Source: Acidobacteriota bacterium
GTDB lineage: Bacteria; Acidobacteriota; UBA890; WLXD01
Length of the DNA stretch: 64,000 nucleotides
Assembly: GCA_036012155.1 (NCBI GenBank)
Contig: DASCOT010000033.1
Span: 106-64,105, forward strand
Direction: 5' to 3'
The notes under the pieces are model-generated. The model worked only from the letters and a program-made list of their open reading frames with translations. It did no database searches and had not been told where the DNA came from. How positions within the stretch are numbered: the first letter of the stretch is position 1; the number at the start of each line of letters is the position of its first letter. A program made the position numbers and the translations under genes. Positions 9,326 to 20,397 of the stretch are shown here, piece after piece.

Positions 9326-9889
9326 TTGGGCATTCCGGCCACACAGATCAAGAGGGGCATGGTTCTGGACCTGGACGGTGAGCTTCTGCGTGTGCAGGAG
9401 TTCACCCATGTAACGCCGGGCAAAGGTCAGGCGGTCATGCAGACGAAGCTGCGCAACATGCGCACCGGCACGCTAATCGACAAGCGCTTCCGCTCCGCCG
9501 AGACATTGGAGCCGGCACACGTCGACCGCCGCACAATGCAGTACCTCTATCTGGACGGTGACCTCTACACGTTCATGGACCTGGAAACCTACGAGCAGTC
9601 GGGCATGACCGCCGAGAAGCTCGCGGCGGAGCTCCCGTACTTGCTGTCGAACACCGAGGTCAAGGTGACCTTCGTAGGTGCGGAGGCCCTCGGTGTCGAG
9701 CTTCCCGGCACCGTCGAGATGGAGGTCACACAGACCGATCCTGCAATCAAGGGCGCCACCGCCGCGGCACAGACGAAGCCGGCAACGCTGGAGACTGGAC
9801 TCGTCGTCCAGGTTCCACCGTTCATCAGCCAGGGCGACCGCGTCCGGGTTGATACGGGCACCGGTCAGTACTTGACTCGGGCGACTTGA
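9326..9889 (+). CDS. efp: Translation elongation factor P
   Basis: HVTPGKGQAVMQTK loop, TKPATLETG, VPPFI..GD.VRVDT. TTG start with AGGAG RBS at 9313. Confidence 0.95.
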   Translation: MGIPATQIKRGMVLDLDGELLRVQEFTHVTPGKGQAVMQTKLRNMRTGTLIDKRFRSAETLEPAHVDRRTMQYLYLDGDLYTFMDLETYEQSGMTAEKLAAELPYLLSNTEVKVTFVGAEALGVELPGTVEMEVTQTDPAIKGATAAAQTKPATLETGLVVQVPPFISQGDRVRVDTGTGQYLTRAT

Positions 9890-9935: not shown

Positions 9936-11111
9936 ATGACGACCGTGTCGTCGCCAACGCGAGAATCGCCCGATGCGCCGGGCATCGGTCGACGCCTGAG
10001 CGCTGACTTGATGGCGGCCACCATCGGCACGATGTTGGCGTACGTGCTGCTGTTGTATCTGCACGGCACCCGGCATCCCGGCTGGATCTGGGCGCTCGTC
10101 TGCGGCGGCCTGGGCGGCGTCGGGACGCGACGACTCGTACGTCCGAGCTACACGACGTTCCCACCCTATCTACGACGACCATTGAGCCTCGGAGTCATCA
10201 CACTCGGGACCGTCTTTGCCACCTGGGCCACGCTCGCTCGCGAGCCGGCATCGTATTGGCTGCTGCGCTGGCGCGAAGCGATCACGCTGCCGGTCCTGGG
10301 CGTGAGCATCGGGCTCGGCTTGGCGTCGCTCATCTATACGTACCGGCGTCTGGAACGAGAGATCGAGGCCAAGCAACGACTGGAGGACGACCTCCAGGTC
10401 GCCAGTCGGATTCAGCAGAGCTTGCTGCGCGGACGAGTACCGAATCGGTCGTGGGTGGAGACACACGCGGTCAACATTGCCTCGCGGCAGGTAGGTGGCG
10501 ACTACTACGAGATTCTCGACCGCGGCGAGCACGGCATCTGCTTCGCCGTGGGTGACGTTTCCGGCAAGGGGGTGCCCGCCGCGTTGCTCATGTCGTCGCT
10601 GCAATCGGCGTTCCTGGCGGCCCACTCGATACACAACGACCTCGCCGAGATCTGCCGGCTAGTAAACCGATTCCTGGTCGAGCGCACCACCCCCGAACGA
10701 TACGCGACATTCTTCGTCGGGCATCTGACACAGCGCGGACACTTGCGTTACGTAAACGCCGGCCACAATCCACCGCTGATCATCGGCTCGGACGTGGCAC
10801 ATCGCCTGTTCGGCGGTGGGCGACCGCTAGGCCTGTTCACCACCAGCGAGTATGAGCTACAAGAACGCAACATGGAGCGCGACGAGGTGCTGCTCGTCTA
10901 TACCGACGGCGTCACCGAGGCGACGGCCGGCCACGCCGAAGAGTTCGGTGAGGCACGCCTCGAGCAGGCGACGCGAGCTCAGCACCACGGTAGCGCGGCA
11001 GACATCAGCGCTGCCGTGCTGGAGGCGCTGCATGGCCATACCGGACCCGACACCGAACAGGCAGACGACATCACGCTGCTCGTCCTGCGACCGCGCGAGC
11101 TCACCGCATGA
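9936..11111 (+). CDS. Membrane-anchored PP2C/SpoIIE-family Ser/Thr phosphatase
   Basis: VGGDYY, GDVSGKGVPAALLM, NAGHNPP, YTDGVTEA, DDITLLV, preceded by a multi-TM N-terminal domain. Confidence 0.9.
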   Translation: MTTVSSPTRESPDAPGIGRRLSADLMAATIGTMLAYVLLLYLHGTRHPGWIWALVCGGLGGVGTRRLVRPSYTTFPPYLRRPLSLGVITLGTVFATWATLAREPASYWLLRWREAITLPVLGVSIGLGLASLIYTYRRLEREIEAKQRLEDDLQVASRIQQSLLRGRVPNRSWVETHAVNIASRQVGGDYYEILDRGEHGICFAVGDVSGKGVPAALLMSSLQSAFLAAHSIHNDLAEICRLVNRFLVERTTPERYATFFVGHLTQRGHLRYVNAGHNPPLIIGSDVAHRLFGGGRPLGLFTTSEYELQERNMERDEVLLVYTDGVTEATAGHAEEFGEARLEQATRAQHHGSAADISAAVLEALHGHTGPDTEQADDITLLVLRPRELTA

Positions 11112-12202
11112 GCGGCGTAATGACGCCGCGGCCACCGCACCGTCGTGGTCTCCGCGGTGTGGTCTCCGACCTCGCCGCAGCTCTCGGCGGAGCGCTGGTG
11201 TCGCTCCTGCTGCTGTGGTACCTGCACGGCGCCTGGGAGCCTGTATGGGCTCTTCTGTGCGGCGGCCTCAGCGGCATTCTCTTTCGTCGTCTCGTCGAGC
11301 CGAGCTACGCGAGCTTTCCCGCCTACCTCCGCAACCCGCTCGACAAGGCGCTCATCCTGCTGGGGACCATCGTCACCAGCTGGGCGACTCTGGTACGCGA
11401 GCCGCCCTCGTACTGGCTGTTGCGCTGGCAGGAAGCGGTTACCTTGCCGGCACTGGCCGCTGTGCTGGGCCTAGGGTTGGCAGGCGTCATCTACTCGCAC
11501 GCCCGTATGCGAAGAGAGATCGAGGCAGCCCGTTCGCGCGAAGCAGCGATGCGAGAAGCGGCTCTGCACGCTCGGCTCAGAGCGCTGCAGGCACAGATCA
11601 ACCCGCATTTTCTCTTCAACGCCTTCAACGCGCTCGCAGAGTTGACTCACGATGACCCCGCCGTTGCCGAACAGCTGGTGGGCGACCTGGCTCACCTGCT
11701 GCGCTATACGCTGCGCTCGTCCGCCGAGGGCACCGTGCCGCTGTTTAGCGAGCTCAAGGCGGTCGGCCACTACATCCGGGTCGAGAAGGCGCGCCTCCGA
11801 GAACGCTTGCGATTCGAGCAAGACGTCGATCCGGAGGCGCTGCCGCGCAGCATTCCGGGATTGGTACTGCAGCCGCTCGTGGAGAACGCCGTGCAACACG
11901 CGGTGGCCACCCGCGCCGAGGGCGGTACCGTGCGTATTATCGTGACGTGCTCCGACGATACGCTGGTGGTGCGCGTCGAGGACGACGGGCCCGGGCTACC
12001 CGATGAGCTCCAACGTCGTCTGGCAGCCGGCACCACCGATTCGTCGCTGGCGACCATCGATCTGACCCCCGGGACGGGTGGCGCGGGAGGCGGTCTGGCC
12101 AACGTCCTGCAACGGCTGGCGCTGCGTTATCGCGGTGCTGCCACGCTAGTGACCGTACCGCTTGATCCCGGCACACGCATCGAGATGAGGATTCCAACAT
12201 GA
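11108..12202 (+). CDS. LytS/YehU-type sensor histidine kinase
   Basis: LQAQINPHFLFN, LQPLVENAV.H, VEDDGPG, GGGLANV..RL. ATGA overlap with the phosphatase gene. Confidence 0.92.
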   Translation: MSGVMTPRPPHRRGLRGVVSDLAAALGGALVSLLLLWYLHGAWEPVWALLCGGLSGILFRRLVEPSYASFPAYLRNPLDKALILLGTIVTSWATLVREPPSYWLLRWQEAVTLPALAAVLGLGLAGVIYSHARMRREIEAARSREAAMREAALHARLRALQAQINPHFLFNAFNALAELTHDDPAVAEQLVGDLAHLLRYTLRSSAEGTVPLFSELKAVGHYIRVEKARLRERLRFEQDVDPEALPRSIPGLVLQPLVENAVQHAVATRAEGGTVRIIVTCSDDTLVVRVEDDGPGLPDELQRRLAAGTTDSSLATIDLTPGTGGAGGGLANVLQRLALRYRGAATLVTVPLDPGTRIEMRIPT

Positions 12203-12972
12203 CTATCCGCGCCGTAACGGTCGACGATGAGCCGCTCGCTCGCCGACGCCTGCGGCGGCTGCTGGCGGAGCATAGCGACGTCGAGCTCGTCGGCGTGGCC
12301 GCAAGCGGCAGCGAGGCAATCAAGGTGGTGCTCGAGGAGCGCCCTGACGTAGTGTTTCTCGACGTGCGCATGCCCGACAAGGACGGTCTGGAGACTCTAC
12401 GCGCGCTGCATGAGCATCTCCCCGAGACTGTACGCCCGCTGGCCGTCTTCACGACCGCGTACGAAGAGCACGCCGTCGAAGCGTTCGCCCTCGAGGGCAC
12501 CGACTACCTGGTCAAGCCGATTGATCGCGAGCAGCTCTCACGAGCACTGCGACGCGTACGGCAGGGCCTATGGCAGCGGCGGCTACCGCAAGATGAGCCC
12601 GACGCACCACCCGCGACGCCGGAAGACCGCCAGCGCATCAGCGGTCACCTGGCGGGCCATCAAGCCGGCAAGATCGTCAACCTGCAGCTCGAGGACATCG
12701 CGTGCGTGAGCGTCGAAGACACCATCACCTGGGCCTACACGCCACAAGGACGCTACCGGCTCAAGCAGGCGCTTCACGAGATCGAGGAGCGATTGCCCTC
12801 GCCGCCCTTCGTTCGTGTCTCGCGCGCCTCGATCATCAACCTGGAGTGGATCGATCACCTGGCGCCGATGTTCTCGGGTACCTATACGGCCGTGCTGCGA
12901 CCGGCCGTCGGCACTCAGGTTCACGTTTCGCGCCGCCGGGCGCGCCGGCTGCGCGAGCTGCTCGGATGGTAG
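12199..12972 (+). CDS. LytTR-family response regulator
   Basis: Receiver VDDE / FLDVRMP / FTTAY / DYLVKP, plus LytTR domain FVRVSRASIIN and VSRRR. Confidence 0.93.
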   Translation: MTIRAVTVDDEPLARRRLRRLLAEHSDVELVGVAASGSEAIKVVLEERPDVVFLDVRMPDKDGLETLRALHEHLPETVRPLAVFTTAYEEHAVEAFALEGTDYLVKPIDREQLSRALRRVRQGLWQRRLPQDEPDAPPATPEDRQRISGHLAGHQAGKIVNLQLEDIACVSVEDTITWAYTPQGRYRLKQALHEIEERLPSPPFVRVSRASIINLEWIDHLAPMFSGTYTAVLRPAVGTQVHVSRRRARRLRELLGW

Positions 12973-13135
12973 CCACGGCAATGGTAGCGGCCGACCGGGT
13001 AGCCACTCGGAACCGGCTATCGACCGATGGCACCGCGACGCGGCCATTCCGCTTGATTGTGTGGGCGCGCCCGAGCAGGGCTGCGATACTGCGAGCTACC
13101 GAGCCGACTCACTTGCGGAGCCTCGGGAACCACGT

Positions 13136-14395
13136 ATGAGAATTGCCCCTCAGCTGAAGATCCCCAAGGCCGCCTCGACAACGATGTGCGTCTTGTGCGT
13201 CGGCGCCTTCCTGTCGCTGGCACCGACCGGGGCAAGAACGAATGCAGCGGCCGCCGCTACTGTCGCTCCATCGCCAGCACAGGACCCCACGGAGCCGGCG
13301 CCCGCCTCGCAGCAAGCACCTGCGGCAGCGATCTCCGCGCCTCCGGAACGACCGCGGTTCATCAACGTGCTGAACGAGCGCGTCCGCGACGTCGGTGGCG
13401 ACATCTTTCTGTCGGGCCAAGATGTCAGCCTGGCCGGGCGCGTCGGGCACAACGCCTTCTTGTTCGCACAAACTAGCACTGTCGCCGGACACGTTGAGGG
13501 CGACGTCTTCGCCTGGGTAGCGGGCATCACGGTGTCTGGGGAAATCGACGGCGACCTCTACGTGGGGACTGCCGGTGCCACGATCCTCGAGGGCGCCGTC
13601 ATCCACGGTAATATCATCTGTCTCTGCGGTTCCCTCAACGTGGATGGCACGGTGGGGGGAGCGGTCCTCGGCAGTGCCGGCGGTGCCAGCATCGGCGGAA
13701 CCGTACACACCATTGATATGGAAACCGGCCAGTTGGAGTTGGCGGATACCGCCGTCATCCACGGCGACGTGACCTACGAGTCCAACGAAGAGGCGCGGAT
13801 CGCCAATAGCGCTCAGATCGGAGGGTCGCTGAGTTGGAACCGTGAGTCCGGCGATGAAAACGAAGACGACACGACGCAGGGCCTCAGCTTCTGGAGCATC
13901 GCCTGGAAGGTGTGGGTGTATCTCAGTAACCTGATCGTCGGCGCCGTCTTCCTGCTGCTCGGCGGCGCTGCGGCACGCGCGCCAGCGGCAAGCCTGCGGA
14001 ATAGTCCAGCGCCGGGGCTCGGCTTCGGGTTCGTGGTTGCCGTGGTCTTCCCGGTCGCCTGCCTCGTCGCCGTCGCGTTGATCGTGACCCTACCGCTGGG
14101 CGTCGTCGGGCTGCTGCTCTTCGGACTGGGCGCGTTCCTGGCGCGCCTGGTAACCGCGCAGTTCGTCGGCGACTGGTTGTTGAGGCGCCTTGGGCTCGGC
14201 GATTCGTCAGAGTACCTGTCGCTCGCCGTCGGGTTGCTGTTGCTCTTCCTCGTAGCGGCGATTCCCTATGTAGGCTTCTTGGTCCGCTTGGTGACGATCA
14301 TCCTCGGAATCGGCGGCATCTACCTGGCCCTCAGAGCCGGTGGCTTCCCGACAGCCCCGGCGCCCCCACCAGCCCCGAGCGCCACGGCAGGCTGA
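13136..14395 (+). CDS. Exported bactofilin-like beta-helix protein with C-terminal multi-TM domain
   Basis: Signal-like N-terminus, Pro/Ala linker, repeated G-D/N-hydrophobic beta strands (GDIFLSG, GDVFAW, GDLYVG, GNIICL), four C-terminal TM helices. Confidence 0.7.
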   Translation: MRIAPQLKIPKAASTTMCVLCVGAFLSLAPTGARTNAAAAATVAPSPAQDPTEPAPASQQAPAAAISAPPERPRFINVLNERVRDVGGDIFLSGQDVSLAGRVGHNAFLFAQTSTVAGHVEGDVFAWVAGITVSGEIDGDLYVGTAGATILEGAVIHGNIICLCGSLNVDGTVGGAVLGSAGGASIGGTVHTIDMETGQLELADTAVIHGDVTYESNEEARIANSAQIGGSLSWNRESGDENEDDTTQGLSFWSIAWKVWVYLSNLIVGAVFLLLGGAAARAPAASLRNSPAPGLGFGFVVAVVFPVACLVAVALIVTLPLGVVGLLLFGLGAFLARLVTAQFVGDWLLRRLGLGDSSEYLSLAVGLLLLFLVAAIPYVGFLVRLVTIILGIGGIYLALRAGGFPTAPAPPPAPSATAG

Positions 14396-14402
14396 GACGG
14401 GC

Positions 14403-15338
14403 ATGGTGATCCGGGTAGCAGGGCTGCGAAAGGAATACGGCTCGACCGTGGCACTCCGTGGAGTCGATCTCGACATCGAGGACGGCGGGGTGGTGGGGAT
14501 CCTCGGCCCGAACGGGGCCGGGAAGACGACGCTTATGGAGATACTCGAGGGGCTTCGACAGCCCACATCCGGTAGCGTCTCGGTGCTCGGGCTCGATCCC
14601 AAGACACACAGTCGCAAGCTGAAGGAGCGCCTCGGCATACAGCTACAAACGACGTCCCTTCCCACTGAGCTCACGGTGCGTGAGCTACTTCAGCTGTTCG
14701 CATCGTTCTATGAGTCGGCACAAACCGCGGAGGCGATCCTCGAGAAGGTGGATCTCGAGAGCCAGTCCGGCCAGAAGGCCGATACCCTGTCGGGTGGTCA
14801 GAAGCAGCGGCTGGTAGTCGGTATCGCGCTCATTCATGACCCCGAGCTGGTGATGCTCGACGAGCCCACGACGGGTCTGGATCCGAAGGCGCGTCGAGAC
14901 TTGCACCAGGTCGTTCGGGACCTGCGCGATCAGGGGCGCACCACCTTGATGACCACCCACTACATCGAGGAAGCCGAGCTGCTGTGCGATCGGGTCATCA
15001 TCCTGCGACAGGGCGAGATCGTGGCAGATGATAGTCCCTTCGATCTGGTTGGCCAGTCAAGTGAGTCCTCTACCATCTGGATCCACGTAGATGGCGCCAT
15101 GGATCCAGCTCCGATGCTGGCCGCTGGCGCCGAGTCGCTCGGCGAGCAAGGCGTGCATCACAAGTTCTCCACTGCCGACCCCACTGCTACCATTCTTGCG
15201 CTCGGGGACATGCTGCGATCGCAGCGGCTGCAATTGATCGACCTCCGGCTCAAGCGCCCAACGCTCGAGGACGTCTACCTGGAGCTGATGGGAGCCGAGA
15301 TCACCGCAGAGGGGACCGATACGGTGGGCTCACCGTGA
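14403..15338 (+). CDS. ABC-2 exporter ATP-binding protein
   Basis: GPNGAGKTT, LSGGQKQR, MLDEPTTGLDP, TTHYIEEAE. Confidence 0.92.
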   Translation: MVIRVAGLRKEYGSTVALRGVDLDIEDGGVVGILGPNGAGKTTLMEILEGLRQPTSGSVSVLGLDPKTHSRKLKERLGIQLQTTSLPTELTVRELLQLFASFYESAQTAEAILEKVDLESQSGQKADTLSGGQKQRLVVGIALIHDPELVMLDEPTTGLDPKARRDLHQVVRDLRDQGRTTLMTTHYIEEAELLCDRVIILRQGEIVADDSPFDLVGQSSESSTIWIHVDGAMDPAPMLAAGAESLGEQGVHHKFSTADPTATILALGDMLRSQRLQLIDLRLKRPTLEDVYLELMGAEITAEGTDTVGSP

Positions 15339-16189
15339 GCCGGCTGCGCGGGTTGGGCCCGTTGACGCGCGCCGGGCTGCTGCAGGCCTTCCGCTCGCCG
15401 ACCTCGCTGTTCTGGAACCTCGTGTTTCCACTCATATTGCTCTTCCTCTATGGGTTCATATTCTTCCGTAGCGCCGACGGCAAGGTGTTGATGATGCCGG
15501 GGCTTTTCACCATCACCGTCATGTCAGGAGCGTTCTTCGGCGTCTCGTATCTGATGGTGAACGAGCGCGAGTCCGGCATCCTCCGGCGCTATCGCGCCAC
15601 GCCCGTATCGCCCACCACAATCGTATTGGCGAACGGTATCCGTGCCGTCGTTACCATGTCCCTGGCAATCACCACGCAGGCAACCGTCGGCTGGCTGGTG
15701 TTCCGGTATCAGGTCGACGGCTCACTGTTGCTCACTGTGCTGGTGCTGTTGATCGGTGCGGCCGCCTTCGTCCCGCTGGGATTATTCGTCGGCAGCGTGG
15801 CCCAGGACATGCGCAGCGCTCCCGCGATCACCAACCTGCTGTTCTTCCCACTGGTGTTCGGATCGGGTGCGGCACTGCCCGCGTTCATGCTTCCTGGGTG
15901 GGCACAGACCGCATCACGGTTGATCCCTTCGAGCTATCTCGTCGAGTCACTCAGTGGGGTGATGGTCAGAGGATATGGATTGGCCGAGCTGGCTGGCCCG
16001 ATCGCCGTGTTGTTCGCGACCATGGGCGTCGGCATCTGGGCCAATAGCCGGATGTTCCGCTGGGAGAGCAGCGAGCCCATCGACCGCAGCAGCCTATTGG
16101 TAACCGTGGCAGTGATCGCGACCGTCTACGTCGTGGCGTCCTTGGTAGCTCCGGCATTCGGCGTGGCCCACTCGCCCCCGGGTAGTTAG
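15335..16189 (+). CDS. ABC-2 exporter permease
   Basis: FWNLVFPLI, ERESGILRRYRATP, six TM segments; GTG start overlapping the ATPase stop. Confidence 0.88.
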   Translation: MSRLRGLGPLTRAGLLQAFRSPTSLFWNLVFPLILLFLYGFIFFRSADGKVLMMPGLFTITVMSGAFFGVSYLMVNERESGILRRYRATPVSPTTIVLANGIRAVVTMSLAITTQATVGWLVFRYQVDGSLLLTVLVLLIGAAAFVPLGLFVGSVAQDMRSAPAITNLLFFPLVFGSGAALPAFMLPGWAQTASRLIPSSYLVESLSGVMVRGYGLAELAGPIAVLFATMGVGIWANSRMFRWESSEPIDRSSLLVTVAVIATVYVVASLVAPAFGVAHSPPGS

Positions 16190-16329: not shown

Positions 16330-18068
16330 ATGCTGAAGCTCAGCCGCTCCGATCTCGTGTTGGCCATCCTGGGTGTGACCGGCCTGGCGGTCGTCGTTGC
16401 CCTGTATCAATCGGCCTTCCCACTGGCACTGGTGGAGATGGAGGTCACCCGCGAGGAAGCAGTGGCGAGCGCCACCGACTTCGTCGAGGAATTGGGAGCC
16501 GAGCTGGGCGATTTCCGGCACGCGGCGATCTTCTCTGGCGACAGCGAGGCTCTCACCTTCCTGCAACGCACGGTTGGTGACGATGAGGCGGGACGCTGGG
16601 CGCGGGAGGAAGTTCCCGTCTGGCGCTGGGATATTCGCTGGTTCAGGCCCCTCGACGCCGAAGAGTGGCTCGCCGAGGTCGGCGTCGACGGTGCAGTCGT
16701 GGCCTTCCGGCACATCGTCGAAGAGGCGGCGGCCGGGGCCGACCTCGATGAGTCTGCGGCACGCGCCCGAGCCGAGGACTTTCTCCGCACCCAGGGATGG
16801 GACCTGTCGCAACTCGACTCGGTGTCCGCGTCGGCTGACCGGAAGGACAACCGGACAGACCATCTGTTCATATGGAAGGTTCGCGGTACCGACATCGCGT
16901 GGCGCCCGAGGAATTCTCACGCGAGCTCCAGGGCGTGCTCAGCGTCGGTAACCTGCTCGCGGTGGGTAGCATCGTATTGACGGTGTTGCTTGCGCTCGCC
17001 GGAATGGGGATCGCGATTGTCCGCTACCGCACCGGCAACATCGAATGGCGCGTCGCGATTACCTGCGGTGTGATCGTCGGCACCATGTTCGCCGTATACA
17101 CCGCGACGAGTTGGCCGAACGTACTGTTCTCGTATCAGACGCAAATCGCGTGGCCGGTATTCGTCGGGCTGTCGGTTCTCGCGCTGACCCTCGGAGCCGT
17201 GTTCTACACGGTATTCGTCATGTTCCCCACGGCTGCCGGCGAGTCCATGGCACGCGACCACTTTCCCGCCAGCATCCTTGGGTTCGCCGACGCCGTCCGC
17301 GGCAAGATCTTCAACCACCAGTTCGGAGCCGCGGCGTTGCGTGGCTATGCGCTGGCCGCCGCCCTGCTCGGATTCCTGACCGGCTTCTACTGGTTCGCAC
17401 AGCGCTACATGGGGGCCTGGTTACCGGCCGAGGGTCCGCACTCGGAGATTTTCAACAACCTGTTCCCGTTCCTCACCCCGCTGACCATCTCTCTCGTCGC
17501 GGCGATCTCCGAGGAGACCATCTACCGCCTTTTTGGTATCTCGCTGTTCAAGAAGCTGTCAGGCTCGACGGCGGTGGCGTTGATCGTACCGGCGGCAATC
17601 TGGGCGTTTGGCCACTCGAACTACCCGGTATTTCCCGTATACATCCGAGGTATCGAGCTGACCATCGCGGGCGTCCTCTTCGGGCTTGCGTTTCTGCACT
17701 ACGGCCTGGTGGCGTGCATCGTGGCGCACTATGTGTTCGACGCGGTGGCGCTCGGCATGCCGTTGGTCACCAGCGGCAACTCGACCTACTTGATCAGTGG
17801 TTTGGTCATCATGGGGTTGGCACTGGTGCCGGGAGTGGCCGGCTTCTTCGCCGGCCGACGCGCCCCCGGCCCCACAGTCTGCCGAGCAGACCCAGACTCC
17901 ATCCAGCTGACGACGCGGCGCTGGAAGGAGCCCGACGGCACACGGCGCGCTCACCAATCGGCCGCCGCAGGGGGCCTGCACGGTAGCATGGTGGGCTCGT
18001 GTTTTCCCGATCGAGCCCGGAGCAGCCCATGTTACGAGCCCCACGCCGCATCCGTAACGTCGCACTGA
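16330..18068 (+). pseudogene. CPBP (Abi/CAAX) intramembrane glutamic endopeptidase, split by a frameshift near 16900-16910
   Basis: ORF 16330-16980 holds a TM anchor plus extracytoplasmic domain ending ..DIAWRP. ORF 16872-18068 continues ..PEEFSRELQ with the CPBP motifs AAISEETIYR, WAFGH and AHYVFD. The second ORF has no convincing start of its own. Confidence 0.7.
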
Positions 18069-20049: not shown

Positions 20050-20397
20050 TCAGGGCTCCACGGCGGTCGGCATCTCGACCTGTCTCAGCGGCGTATCGAA
20101 AACCACGGCAACCTCGTGACCCGAGCCGTTGAGCTCAGACCGGCTCACCGTGCCGTAGATCATCGTGCGACCGATCTTGCCGGCCCCGTGTGGGAAATGT
20201 GTCAGACAGCGGACCCCCGGCACCACCGCCCGATCGAGCTGTGCCATGAGCCCACCACAGCCCAGGTTGACGGTCTCGCCGCTAGCGCGAAAAGGCTTTT
20301 CGGTACCGTCGTAGCCGTGCAACTCGACGTCCAGAACGATCGGCAGCGCCAGCGGCCGCCGATCATGCGACCTTCGATCGTCCTGTGCTCGACCCAC
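20050..20397 (-). CDS. Stand-alone PilZ-domain protein
   Basis: RRSHDRR (RxxxR) and NLGCGG ([D/N]xxxxG) in a short beta-rich protein. Confidence 0.7.
   Translation of the reverse strand: MGRAQDDRRSHDRRPLALPIVLDVELHGYDGTEKPFRASGETVNLGCGGLMAQLDRAVVPGVRCLTHFPHGAGKIGRTMIYGTVSRSELNGSGHEVAVVFDTPLRQVEMPTAVEP

What the first reader, a model, noticed from the sequence alone, without database searches (positions are those of the whole stretch)
9936..12972. One duplicated membrane sensor wired to both a PP2C phosphatase and a LytS kinase
Seen: the N-terminal ~120 aa of the two adjacent proteins (about 10000-10370 and 11165-11530) are clear paralogues. Shared motifs: DLxAA, YLHG, WALxCGGLxG, RRLVxPSYxxFPxYLRxPL, LGT, WATLxREPxSYWLLRWxEAxTLP, GLGLA, REIEA. 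I do not recognise this TM domain as a named sensor family. The genes are translationally coupled to a LytTR regulator. Inference: one signal feeds both a His-Asp pathway and a Ser/Thr dephosphorylation (partner-switching) pathway, or the two proteins pair through matching membrane domains. This is a candidate undescribed branched signalling module.
Basis: partly seen in the sequence, partly recalled or inferred. Interest (0 to 1): 0.72.

Follow-up and report, generated by a model that had tools for sequence, protein, structure and literature searches.

The report
Kinase and phosphatase sharing one sensor
In a marine Acidobacteriota lineage, a histidine kinase and a neighbouring Ser/Thr phosphatase carry duplicated copies of one rare, unnamed four-helix membrane domain, in a conserved seven-gene envelope-signalling locus; it is a natural case of one input module wired to two signalling chemistries, though what it senses and what the phosphatase acts on are unknown.

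Summary
The first ~140 residues of the PP2C/SpoIIE phosphatase (9936-11111) and of the His_kinase-type histidine kinase (11108-12202) are 53% identical (E 8e-42). ATGA overlaps couple both genes to a LytTR response regulator (12199-12972).

The shared part is a predicted 4-TM bundle with tiny outside loops, and TM4 runs straight into the signalling helix. It matches no Pfam or NCBIfam family and no PDB fold. It is rare: about 27 clusters among 1.84 billion proteins. It occurs only on these two outputs.

The pair is conserved in all seven genome loci recovered, all Acidobacteriota, always as efp | PP2C-HK-RR | DUF8173 beta-helix membrane protein-ABC-ABC2-CPBP. More distant relatives have HK-RR-DUF8173 without the phosphatase. 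The domain tree shows one ancient copy from kinase to phosphatase. Both catalytic cores are intact.

Conserved AlgR/BtsR-like repeats lie upstream of the DUF8173 gene, which suggests the regulator drives that operon. No STAS or anti-sigma partner lies in the window, so the partner-switching branch is untested.

Verdict: a real, undescribed variant of a known principle (exchangeable inputs on kinases and PPM phosphatases). Interest is moderate.

The parts
9329..9889 (+). efp (elongation factor P), the conserved upstream neighbour; only 46 bp separate it from the phosphatase gene
   Evidence: Pfam EFP_N/EFP/Elong-fact-P_C. efp precedes the PP2C gene in all related loci, including the distant L009.
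9936..11111 (+). Membrane PP2C/SpoIIE-type Ser/Thr phosphatase (391 aa): 4-TM input domain, helical linker, PPM domain
   Evidence: ORF. PF07228 E 1.9e-44, aa 198-385. Metal-binding Asp motifs GGD189, GD207VSGKG, TD324G and D377D378 are invariant in 24 orthologues. Nearest solved relatives are Rv1364c, Pseudomonas RssB, SiaA and SpoIIE.
9978..10370 (+). Copy 1 of the unnamed 4-TM input domain (phosphatase residues 15-145)
   Evidence: 53% identical to copy 2, E 8e-42. No Pfam hit at E<=10.
11108..12202 (+). Histidine kinase with LytS/YesM-type catalytic core (364 aa): 4-TM input domain, signalling helix, His_kinase (H167 in NPHFLFN), HATPase_c
   Evidence: PF06580 E 2.5e-22 (aa 155-234) and PF02518 E 1.3e-13 (aa 253-363). 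PDB 6swj E 3.6e-27. N and G boxes are conserved in 22 relatives. ATGA overlap with the phosphatase stop codon.
11141..11533 (+). Copy 2 of the 4-TM input domain (kinase residues 12-142)
   Evidence: AlphaFold2 on an 18-sequence alignment gave mean pLDDT 85. Helices are 15-40, 45-67, 72-97, 100-105 and 107-156, so TM4 is continuous with the cytoplasmic signalling helix. Foldseek against PDB found nothing (best E 2.2).
12199..12972 (+). LytTR-family response regulator (257 aa; D9/D10, D55 and K106 read directly from the printed sequence)
   Evidence: PF00072 E 7.5e-23 and PF04397 E 1.2e-21. Best NCBIfam matches are BtsR and LytR, both below cut-off. ATGA overlap with the kinase stop codon.
13002..13050 (+). 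Candidate regulator-binding region with three conserved blocks about two helical turns apart: GCCACTCG (13002-13009), CGACCGATG (13021-13029), GCCATTCC (13043-13050)
   Evidence: Invariant columns cluster in these blocks across 7 loci. A CCRYTC pair at 20-22 or 41-43 bp spacing occurs only twice in the 64-kb window on both strands. The motif resembles the AlgR site CCGTTCGTC (PMC4064291) and the ACCGCTCA-type repeats in the YehT/BtsR site oligonucleotide (PMC4847170). Function is inferred.
13085..13090 (+). GATACT, a -10-like hexamer conserved in the relatives, 45 nt upstream of the DUF8173 start codon
   Evidence: Alignment A2 and sequence. The consensus sigma-70 scan did not call it, which would fit an activator-dependent promoter. 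Inference.
13136..14395 (+). DUF8173/bactofilin-like membrane protein (419 aa): N-terminal signal or anchor helix, disordered linker, beta-helix (aa 74-236), C-terminal multi-helix membrane domain
   Evidence: Weak Bactofilin hit. Orthologues carry PF26514 DUF8173. AlphaFold2 gave pLDDT >90 for the beta-helix. Foldseek found only generic beta-helices, bactofilin included. The gene follows HK-RR in every locus, including outgroups L010, L011 and L015.
14403..15338 (+). ABC transporter ATPase
   Evidence: PF00005 E 5.8e-31. It lies 8 bp after the DUF8173 gene and is conserved in the core clade.
15335..16189 (+). ABC-2-type permease
   Evidence: PF01061 E 4.5e-27. It overlaps the ATPase gene by 4 bp.
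16330..18068 (+). CPBP (Rce1-like) intramembrane protease gene, split here into two overlapping frames (16330-16980 and 16872-18068)
   Evidence: PF02517 E 4.6e-12 in the second part. It is a single 554-555 aa ORF in L001 and L005. The window sequence is identical in contigs from three independent metagenome studies.

Best explanation
The locus is a conserved seven-gene envelope-signalling unit of marine Acidobacteriota. It has a signalling operon (membrane PP2C phosphatase, membrane histidine kinase, LytTR regulator). A second operon follows: a DUF8173 beta-helix membrane protein, an ABC-2 exporter and a CPBP protease.

Shown here:
- The kinase and the phosphatase carry paralogous copies of a rare, unnamed 4-TM input domain. 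Its outside loops are only about 4 and about 9 residues long in the model (residues 41-44 and 98-106). Its fourth helix continues without a break into the helical linker that leads to the catalytic domain.
- The domain was ancestral on the kinase, within an older HK-RR-DUF8173 triad. It was copied once onto an RsbU/SpoIIE-type PPM phosphatase.
- Both copies have since kept nearly the same 40 conserved positions, and both catalytic cores are intact.

Inferred:
- Both proteins read the same membrane-level cue. That cue is either a small ligand bound at the conserved periplasm-facing rim (H40, W47, C51, W92, T94, R97, SYWLLRWxEA), as pyruvate is bound in BtsS, or a contact with the DUF8173 or ABC membrane proteins. 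The cue passes down TM4 and the linker to a dimeric output, as proposed for the exchangeable coiled-coil toolkit of kinases and PPM phosphatases.
- The kinase phosphorylates the LytTR regulator. The regulator activates the DUF8173-ABC-CPBP operon through three conserved AlgR/BtsR-like boxes.
- In parallel, the phosphatase dephosphorylates an unlinked pSer/pThr protein, most probably a STAS- or SiaC-type switch protein. This gives a second, post-translational branch.
For: Paralogy: 53% identity, E 8e-42.

Rarity and restriction:
- An exhaustive profile search of 1.84 billion representatives gave 30 clusters. Three of them are tandem-repeat artefacts.
- Every full-length member has either a PP2C or a His_kinase output.

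Conservation of the cassette: efp-PP2C-HK-RR-DUF8173-ABC-ABC2(-CPBP) is kept in L001-L008 and L016.

Order of events:
- Outgroups L010, L011/L012, L014 and L015 have HK-RR without a phosphatase gene upstream, and L010, L011 and L015 also keep DUF8173 downstream; L012 and L014 end within the RR gene.
- In the domain tree, 23 of 24 PP2C copies form one group nested among kinase copies. Paralogues from the same genome do not cluster together.

Structure: mean pLDDT 85, four TM helices, TM4 continuous to residue 156.

Shared constraint: 40 positions are conserved in both classes, and only one is class-specific.

Intact catalysis: four Asp motifs are invariant in 24 phosphatases, and the N and G boxes are conserved in 22 kinases; the H-box NPHFLFN is present in the window kinase, but its conservation across relatives was not tallied.

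Regulator boxes: conserved blocks upstream of the DUF8173 gene resemble the AlgR and YehT sites.

Precedents: ligand binding inside a LytS-type TM domain (PMC10653868), and shared N-terminal domains with a coiled-coil linker among PPM phosphatases, kinases and GGDEF proteins (PMC12143880).
Against: - No stimulus, no substrate and no interaction has been tested.
- No STAS, RsbW or SiaC-like gene is in the window or the related loci.
- The regulator boxes are an inference from conservation. The loose motif is common (160 single hits in the window).
- Near-identical conservation of the two copies would also be expected if they bind each other or a common protein rather than a ligand.
- No RNA data could be found to confirm the operon structure.
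Confidence: 0.5

Rival explanations
1. Co-sensor model. The 4-TM domain does not bind a ligand. It docks onto the DUF8173 membrane protein, the ABC-2 transporter, or both. One of these is the real envelope sensor, and it controls both the kinase and the phosphatase. This would resemble LiaF-LiaS or BceAB-BceS with intramembrane-sensing kinases. It overlaps with the best explanation and differs only in where the signal is read.
For: - The outside loops are only about 4 and about 9 residues long in the model.
- The HK-RR-DUF8173 triad is conserved even where the phosphatase and ABC genes are absent.
- The same beta-helix plus DUF8173 module is fused to zf-HC2 anti-sigma domains directly after an ECF sigma gene (L017). 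There it must be the input part of a signalling protein.
Against: - The DUF8173 gene sits behind its own conserved promoter-like region with regulator boxes, which suits a target gene.
- Stand-alone DUF8173 genes exist without any signalling neighbour (L018, L019).
- The sensor 4-TM domain and the DUF8173 membrane part show no detectable homology (hhalign probability 0.4%).
- No interaction was tested.
Confidence: 0.3
2. Heteromeric receptor. The phosphatase and the kinase pair through their matching 4-TM domains and juxtamembrane helices. The phosphatase paralogue then modulates the kinase, or the reverse, rather than acting as an independent branch.
For: - ATGA translational coupling favours co-production.
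- 40 of 41 strongly conserved positions are shared. The single class-specific position is a charge reversal in the helix just after TM4: Glu140 in 96% of phosphatases and Arg135 in 100% of core kinases.
- The pair never separates in the core clade.
Against: - Kinases with the same domain work without any phosphatase partner in the outgroups.
- A kinase DHp bundle needs two kinase chains (established knowledge).
- By my heptad reading, the Glu/Arg position falls at an e position, not a core position, so it need not touch its counterpart (inference).
- No multimer prediction tool was available.
Confidence: 0.15
3. The phosphatase acts within the two-component pathway itself. It would remove Ser/Thr phosphates from the kinase, the regulator, or the ABC or DUF8173 proteins, which would make it a feedback element and not a partner-switching input.
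For: No partner-switching substrate is encoded nearby. The gene linkage and coupling to the kinase and regulator are tight.
Against: - The nearest characterised relatives all act on STAS- or SiaC-type switch proteins or serve as adaptors.
- No Ser/Thr kinase is encoded in the cassette to write such marks.
Confidence: 0.08
4. The shared domain is only a membrane anchor kept after a tandem gene duplication and has no sensing role.
For: It has no extracytoplasmic domain. No known ligand-binding fold was matched.
Against: An anchor would not keep 40 positions fixed in both paralogue classes down to about 45% overall identity. Those positions include polar and aromatic residues in the loops and helix ends (RPSYxxFPxYLRxP, SWATLxREPxSYWLLRWREA).
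Confidence: 0.04

Closest known systems
AlgZ(FimS)/AlgR of Pseudomonas aeruginosa
   Same: A small kinase whose first ~150 residues are predicted to form four TM helices with no known ligand, followed directly by a His_kinase-type core, and paired with a LytTR regulator (PMC4064291). The AlgR box CCGTTCGTC resembles the conserved box here: L004 has CCGTTCGCC at the aligned position.
   Different: Homology of the two 4-TM domains was not tested because no AlgZ sequence was on hand. AlgZR has no phosphatase paralogue and no DUF8173/ABC-2 neighbours.
BtsS/BtsR (YehU/YehT) and other LytS/LytTR systems
   Same: The same catalytic core type (P-H-F H-box, PF06580) and the same LytTR partner. The regulator's best NCBIfam match is BtsR. 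The signal is read inside the membrane domain (pyruvate in BtsS; PMC10653868). The direct-repeat operator has similar half-sites.
   Different: LytS-type kinases are defined by the 5TMR-LYT domain, and BtsS also has a GAF domain. Neither is present here. There is no phosphatase paralogue.
RsbU / RsbP / SpoIIE / SiaA / RssB-type PPM phosphatases and the 'exchangeable toolkit' of Baral et al. 2025 (PMC12143880)
   Same: The same PPM subfamily. An N-terminal regulatory domain joins the phosphatase through a helical linker. The paper's principle is that the same regulatory domains serve phosphatases, kinases and GGDEF cyclases.
   Different: The published examples use soluble domains (RsbU-N, PAS, REC, GAF, HAMP). 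Here the shared module is an unnamed, purely membrane-embedded domain, and the two outputs sit side by side in one operon. The substrate is unknown.
RsbK-RsbY of Bacillus cereus (from my own knowledge)
   Same: A histidine kinase pathway and a PP2C phosphatase are combined in one stress-signalling module.
   Different: That wiring is serial: the kinase phosphorylates a REC domain fused to the PP2C. Here there is no REC on the phosphatase, and the wiring looks parallel, through duplicated input domains.
LiaFSR and BceRS-AB three-component systems; NatK-NatR/natAB of B. subtilis (Ogura 2007, cited in PMC3498285; that NatR is a LytTR regulator is from memory)
   Same: Kinases with almost no extracellular part work together with an accessory membrane protein or transporter encoded alongside. 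In the Nat case, a two-component system controls an adjacent ABC-2 exporter.
   Different: The kinase classes and accessory proteins differ. The DUF8173 protein gives no LiaF-family hit, and the transporter is ABC-2, not BceAB/FtsX type. None of these systems has a paralogous phosphatase.

Membership tests
LytS-type histidine kinases (LytS/YehU/BtsS family) | 5TMR-LYT input domain (PF07694), stated to be characteristic of all members (PMC10653868) | tested here: not met
   No PF07694 hit for the whole protein at E<=0.1 or for the N-terminus alone at E<=10. The model has 4 TM helices, not 5 to 7.
LytS-type histidine kinases (LytS/YehU/BtsS family) | His_kinase (PF06580) phosphoacceptor region with Pro before and Phe after the His, plus HATPase_c | tested here: met
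   PF06580 E 2.5e-22 and PF02518 E 1.3e-13. The H-box is NPH167FLFN. N and G boxes are conserved. PDB 6swj E 3.6e-27.
LytS-type histidine kinases (LytS/YehU/BtsS family) | Cognate LytTR response regulator encoded adjacently | tested here: met
   Response_reg plus LytTR, with an ATGA overlap. Conserved in all loci.
AlgZ/FimS-type kinases | Four TM helices within the first ~150 residues, followed directly by the kinase core, with a LytTR partner | tested here: met
   AlphaFold2 model and Pfam, compared with the description in PMC4064291.
AlgZ/FimS-type kinases | Sequence homology of the TM domain to AlgZ | not tested
RsbU/SpoIIE-type PPM (PP2C) phosphatases, PF07228 | PF07228 domain with the metal-binding Asp residues | tested here: met
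   E 1.9e-44, above the gathering score. D189, D207, D324 and D377/D378 are invariant in 24 orthologues and align to the same motifs in Rv1364c.
Partner-switching module (PPM phosphatase + STAS anti-anti-sigma + RsbW/SpoIIAB-type kinase) | STAS-domain substrate and anti-sigma kinase encoded with the phosphatase | tested here: not met
   None among the cassette genes or the ten ORFs scanned (eight of ~95-141 aa plus two larger) of the window, and none in the related loci. The rest of the genome could not be searched.
SiaA (NF038263) | Score above the NCBIfam equivalog cut-off of 700 bits | tested here: not met
   56.8 bits, covering the phosphatase domain only.
Intramembrane-sensing kinases with accessory protein (LiaFSR / Bce type) | Minimal extracytoplasmic loops in the input domain | tested here: met
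   Loops of about 4 and about 9 residues (41-44 and 98-106) in the model and alignment. There are four helices, however, not the two of the original definition (my own knowledge).
Intramembrane-sensing kinases with accessory protein (LiaFSR / Bce type) | LiaF-family or BceAB (FtsX-type) partner | tested here: not met
   The DUF8173 protein gives only a weak Bactofilin hit. The permease is ABC2_membrane.
Anti-phage defence systems (PADLOC) | Any cassette protein matching a defence-system model | tested here: not met
   Only generic ABC-ATPase similarity was found.

The most novel reading that the evidence does not exclude
The kinase, the phosphatase and the DUF8173 beta-helix membrane protein form one heteromeric envelope receptor. 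In this reading, the periplasmic beta-helix reads the state of the envelope. The paralogous 4-TM domains are interchangeable docking modules, sorted by the fixed Glu(phosphatase)/Arg(kinase) position after TM4. One conformational event would then switch on transcription through His-Asp transfer and, at the same moment, release a Ser/Thr-phosphorylated switch protein. That would be a three-component receptor with two chemically different outputs, a type not yet described.
Probability: 0.12. Interest if true: 0.75.

Novelty: new variant of a known kind. Interest (0 to 1): 0.5.

Why it matters
Why bacteria reuse the same input domains on kinases, phosphatases and cyclases, and whether such domains drive different outputs by one mechanism, is an active question (PMC12143880). 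The published cases compare proteins from different organisms or use soluble domains. This locus offers a natural matched pair. It has one purely membrane-embedded input domain on two outputs in one operon, and 40 positions are held fixed in both copies. It also comes with a likely transcriptional read-out, the DUF8173 promoter. That makes domain-swap and signal-transmission experiments directly comparable. The work also defines an unnamed 4-TM domain family. It links the uncharacterised DUF8173 beta-helix membrane proteins to two kinds of envelope signalling, LytTR two-component systems and ECF anti-sigma factors. The limits are real: the lineage is uncultured, the stimulus and the phosphatase substrate are unknown, and the general principle is not new.

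Tried and rejected
- Named family for the 4-TM domain: none in Pfam at E<=10 or in NCBIfam.
- Solved fold for the 4-TM domain: Foldseek against PDB gave a best E of 2.2, all generic helical bundles.
- Possible relationship between the sensor 4-TM domain and the membrane part of the DUF8173 protein: hhalign probability 0.4%, rejected.
- Gene conversion between the two copies: rejected. Paralogues from one genome do not cluster in the tree, and cross-paralogue identity stays at 52-59% in each genome.
- A fixed Glu/Asn pair in TM2, reported for a similar cassette in an earlier scan note: not present in this family.
- Autoregulatory boxes upstream of the phosphatase gene: no paired motif there.
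- Consensus promoter and terminator scan: no more hits than in shuffled sequence.
- Defence-system models: nothing specific.
- RNA-seq runs holding the locus: none listed.
- Three long multi-hit proteins in the exhaustive search (P0050, P0068, P0072): tandem-repeat artefacts, not family members.
- Literature searches for the arrangement and for DUF8173: no description found.


Full report
**What is there**

The finding covers three co-directional ORFs on the + strand:
- 9936-11111, 391 aa
- 11108-12202, 364 aa
- 12199-12972, 257 aa

Both junctions are ATGA start/stop overlaps. Pfam assigns domains as follows:
- First protein: SpoIIE/PP2C (PF07228, E 1.9e-44, aa 198-385).
- Second protein: His_kinase (PF06580, aa 155-234) plus HATPase_c.
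- Third protein: Response_reg plus LytTR.

BLASTP of the first two proteins gives 74/139 identities (53%) and E 8e-42, confined to the N-termini.

**The shared domain**

Neither Pfam (down to E 10) nor NCBIfam recognises it. AlphaFold2 on an 18-sequence alignment built from the window and related loci gave mean pLDDT 85. The model has:
- helices at 15-40, 45-67 and 72-97;
- a short helix at 100-105, which is the invariant SYWLLR;
- one long helix at 107-156.

This is a four-helix membrane bundle whose last TM helix continues straight into the cytoplasmic signalling helix. The outside loops are only about 4 and about 9 residues in the model. Foldseek against PDB found nothing (best E 2.2).

I searched 1.84 billion cluster representatives exhaustively with a profile of the two copies. 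This returned only 30 clusters at E<=1e-3. Three of these are tandem-repeat artefacts. A word-indexed search of 5.8 billion proteins returned 41 proteins, 27 with PF07228 and 14 with PF06580 plus PF02518. I classified every retrieved sequence against the window's own domains. Each full-length member carries either the phosphatase or the kinase output and nothing else. The domain is therefore not a generic anchor on many outputs.

**Conservation of the pairing**

All seven loci recovered from species-representative genomes are Acidobacteriota MAGs. Every locus with enough flanking DNA has the same order: efp, PP2C, HK, LytTR regulator, a DUF8173/bactofilin-like membrane protein, an ABC ATPase, an ABC-2 permease and (in six of the eight) a CPBP protease; L006/L016 lack the CPBP. 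This holds down to 60-65% identity. A 45%-identical phosphatase on a short contig is also preceded by efp. Near-identical DNA occurs in marine, seawater and hydrothermal-vent metagenomes from many studies.

**Order of events**

More distant kinases with the same 4-TM domain have unrelated genes, or none on the contig, upstream in place of a phosphatase (P0057/L010, P0071/L011-L012, P0064/L014, P0075/L015). They keep the LytTR regulator. Where the contig continues, they also keep the DUF8173 gene directly downstream.

In a maximum-likelihood tree of the domain alone, 23 of 24 phosphatase copies form one group nested among kinase copies. Copies from the same genome never pair. The domain therefore belonged to an older HK-RR-DUF8173 triad and was copied once onto a PPM phosphatase. 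There has been no later gene conversion.

**Are both outputs alive, and are the two copies under the same constraint?**

- The four Asp motifs of PPM phosphatases (GGD189, GD207VSGKG, TD324G, D377D378) are invariant in 24 orthologues. They align with the same motifs in Rv1364c.
- The kinase has the H-box NPH167FLFN, and the N and G boxes are conserved across 22 relatives.
- The regulator has D9/D10, D55 and K106 (read directly from the sequence).
- Within the 4-TM domain, 40 positions are conserved at 85% or more in both classes with the same residue.
- Only one position is class-specific. It is Glu140 in the phosphatases and Arg135 in the kinases, in the helix just after TM4.
- The conserved residues lie mostly at the periplasm-facing helix ends (YLHG, WALxCGG, SWATLxREPxSYWLLRWREA) and around the cytoplasmic TM2-TM3 turn (RRxVRPSYxxFPxYLRxP).

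**The downstream operon**

The 160-bp gap between the regulator and the DUF8173 gene holds three conserved blocks about two helical turns apart: GCCACTCG at 13002, CGACCGATG at 13021 and GCCATTCC at 13043. A conserved GATACT follows, 45 nt before the start codon.

- The invariant alignment columns cluster in these blocks.
- A CCRYTC pair at this spacing occurs only twice in the whole window on both strands.
- The half-site resembles the AlgR box CCGTTCGTC (PMC4064291). L004 reads CCGTTCGCC at the aligned position.
- It also resembles the ACCGCTCA-type repeats of the YehT/BtsR operator (oligonucleotide in PMC4847170).
- That paper states that LytTR sites are typically two 9-11-nt repeats separated by 11-13 nt.

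I infer that the regulator activates the DUF8173-ABC-ABC2(-CPBP) operon. This is not shown.

The DUF8173 protein is predicted to have an N-terminal signal or anchor helix, a disordered linker, a confident beta-helix (aa 74-236) and a C-terminal multi-helix membrane domain. Its structural matches are only generic beta-helices, bactofilin among them.

Its family is broader than the sensor domain, with 150 hits. It includes versions fused to zf-HC2 anti-sigma domains. One such gene directly follows an ECF sigma factor gene (L017). Stand-alone copies without signalling neighbours also exist (L018, L019). The membrane part of the DUF8173 protein is unrelated to the 4-TM sensor (hhalign probability 0.4%).

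**What the phosphatase acts on**

Its nearest characterised relatives are Rv1364c, Pseudomonas RssB, SiaA and SpoIIE. These act on STAS- or SiaC-type switch proteins or serve as adaptors. No such gene lies in the cassette, among the ten ORFs scanned (eight of ~95-141 aa plus two larger) of the 64-kb window, or in the related loci. The substrate remains open.

**Mechanism**

The best-supported reading has four steps.
1. One membrane-level cue is read by two paralogous input domains.
2. Each domain passes the cue through TM4 and a helical linker to a dimeric output.
3. The kinase branch switches on the neighbouring envelope operon through the LytTR regulator.
4. The phosphatase branch acts on an unlinked phosphoprotein.

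Two precedents make this plausible. BtsS binds pyruvate in a small cavity inside its membrane domain (PMC10653868). Baral et al. argue that PPM phosphatases, kinases and GGDEF cyclases share regulatory domains through a common crossing-helix linker (PMC12143880).

Two rivals remain open.
- **Co-sensor model.** The 4-TM domains may dock onto the DUF8173 or ABC membrane proteins, which would do the sensing. The minimal loops, the older HK-RR-DUF8173 triad and the anti-sigma fusions favour this.
- **Heteromer model.** The two paralogues may pair with each other. The single Glu/Arg class-specific position and the translational coupling hint at this. Against it, kinases with the same domain function without a phosphatase in the outgroups.

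**Comparison with known systems**

The kinase has a LytS-type catalytic core and a LytTR partner. It lacks the 5TMR-LYT domain that defines LytS-type kinases, so I do not file it as a LytS family member.

In architecture it is closest to AlgZ/FimS-AlgR: four TM helices in the first 150 residues, an unknown signal and a LytTR partner. Homology of the membrane domains could not be tested.

The phosphatase is a regular member of the RsbU/SpoIIE PPM family. I found no paper describing this arrangement or DUF8173.

Two earlier notes of this scan describe the same kind of cassette in other genomes. They share no detectable word-level similarity with this kinase. I treat them as leads only. Their idea that the regulator targets the DUF8173 gene is consistent with the conserved boxes I found here. 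The TM2 Glu/Asn pair reported in one of them does not exist in this family.

**Verdict**

This is a real and conserved cassette that has not been described. It is a new variant of a known principle, not a new kind of system. Interest is moderate. It is a clean natural test case for input-domain exchange between kinases and phosphatases and a first functional context for DUF8173. The lineage is uncultured, and both the stimulus and the phosphatase substrate are unknown.

Noticed in passing
window 16330-18068 (frame change near 16872-16980): The CPBP/Rce1-like gene is one 554-555 aa ORF in relatives (L001, L005). In the window it is split into two overlapping frames, and about 26 residues of the relatives' sequence are lost at the junction. 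Contigs from three independent marine metagenome studies are identical to the window here, so this is a real feature of the population and not an assembly error.
   Followed up: yes
L017:3393-5611: An ECF sigma factor gene is followed directly by a 536-aa protein that combines a zf-HC2 anti-sigma domain with the beta-helix plus DUF8173 module. Several such fusions exist (P0157-P0170, P0188). This suggests DUF8173 proteins act as envelope sensors in a second signalling system.
   Followed up: partly
window 12968-13006: Three direct repeats with a 15-bp period (GGTAGCCAC, GGTAGCGGC, GGTAGCCAC) start at the regulator's stop codon. The last one overlaps the first candidate regulator box. They are only partly conserved in L002 and L005.
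   Followed up: no
L005:5767-6935: In this relative (a MAG contig) the N-terminal part of the phosphatase gene is frameshifted, which gives the truncated 313-aa protein P0040. This could be gene decay or a long-read assembly indel.
   Followed up: no
L016:11404-13479: In one relative the ABC-2 permease is called as a 691-aa fusion with an amidohydrolase domain (Amidohydro_1/3), and glycosyltransferases replace the CPBP gene downstream.
   Followed up: no
window 20050-20397 (- strand): A small ORF with a weak PilZ-domain hit (E 0.0045, below cut-off) lies next to the HAMP-pseudopilin gene that another first-stage note flagged.
   Followed up: no
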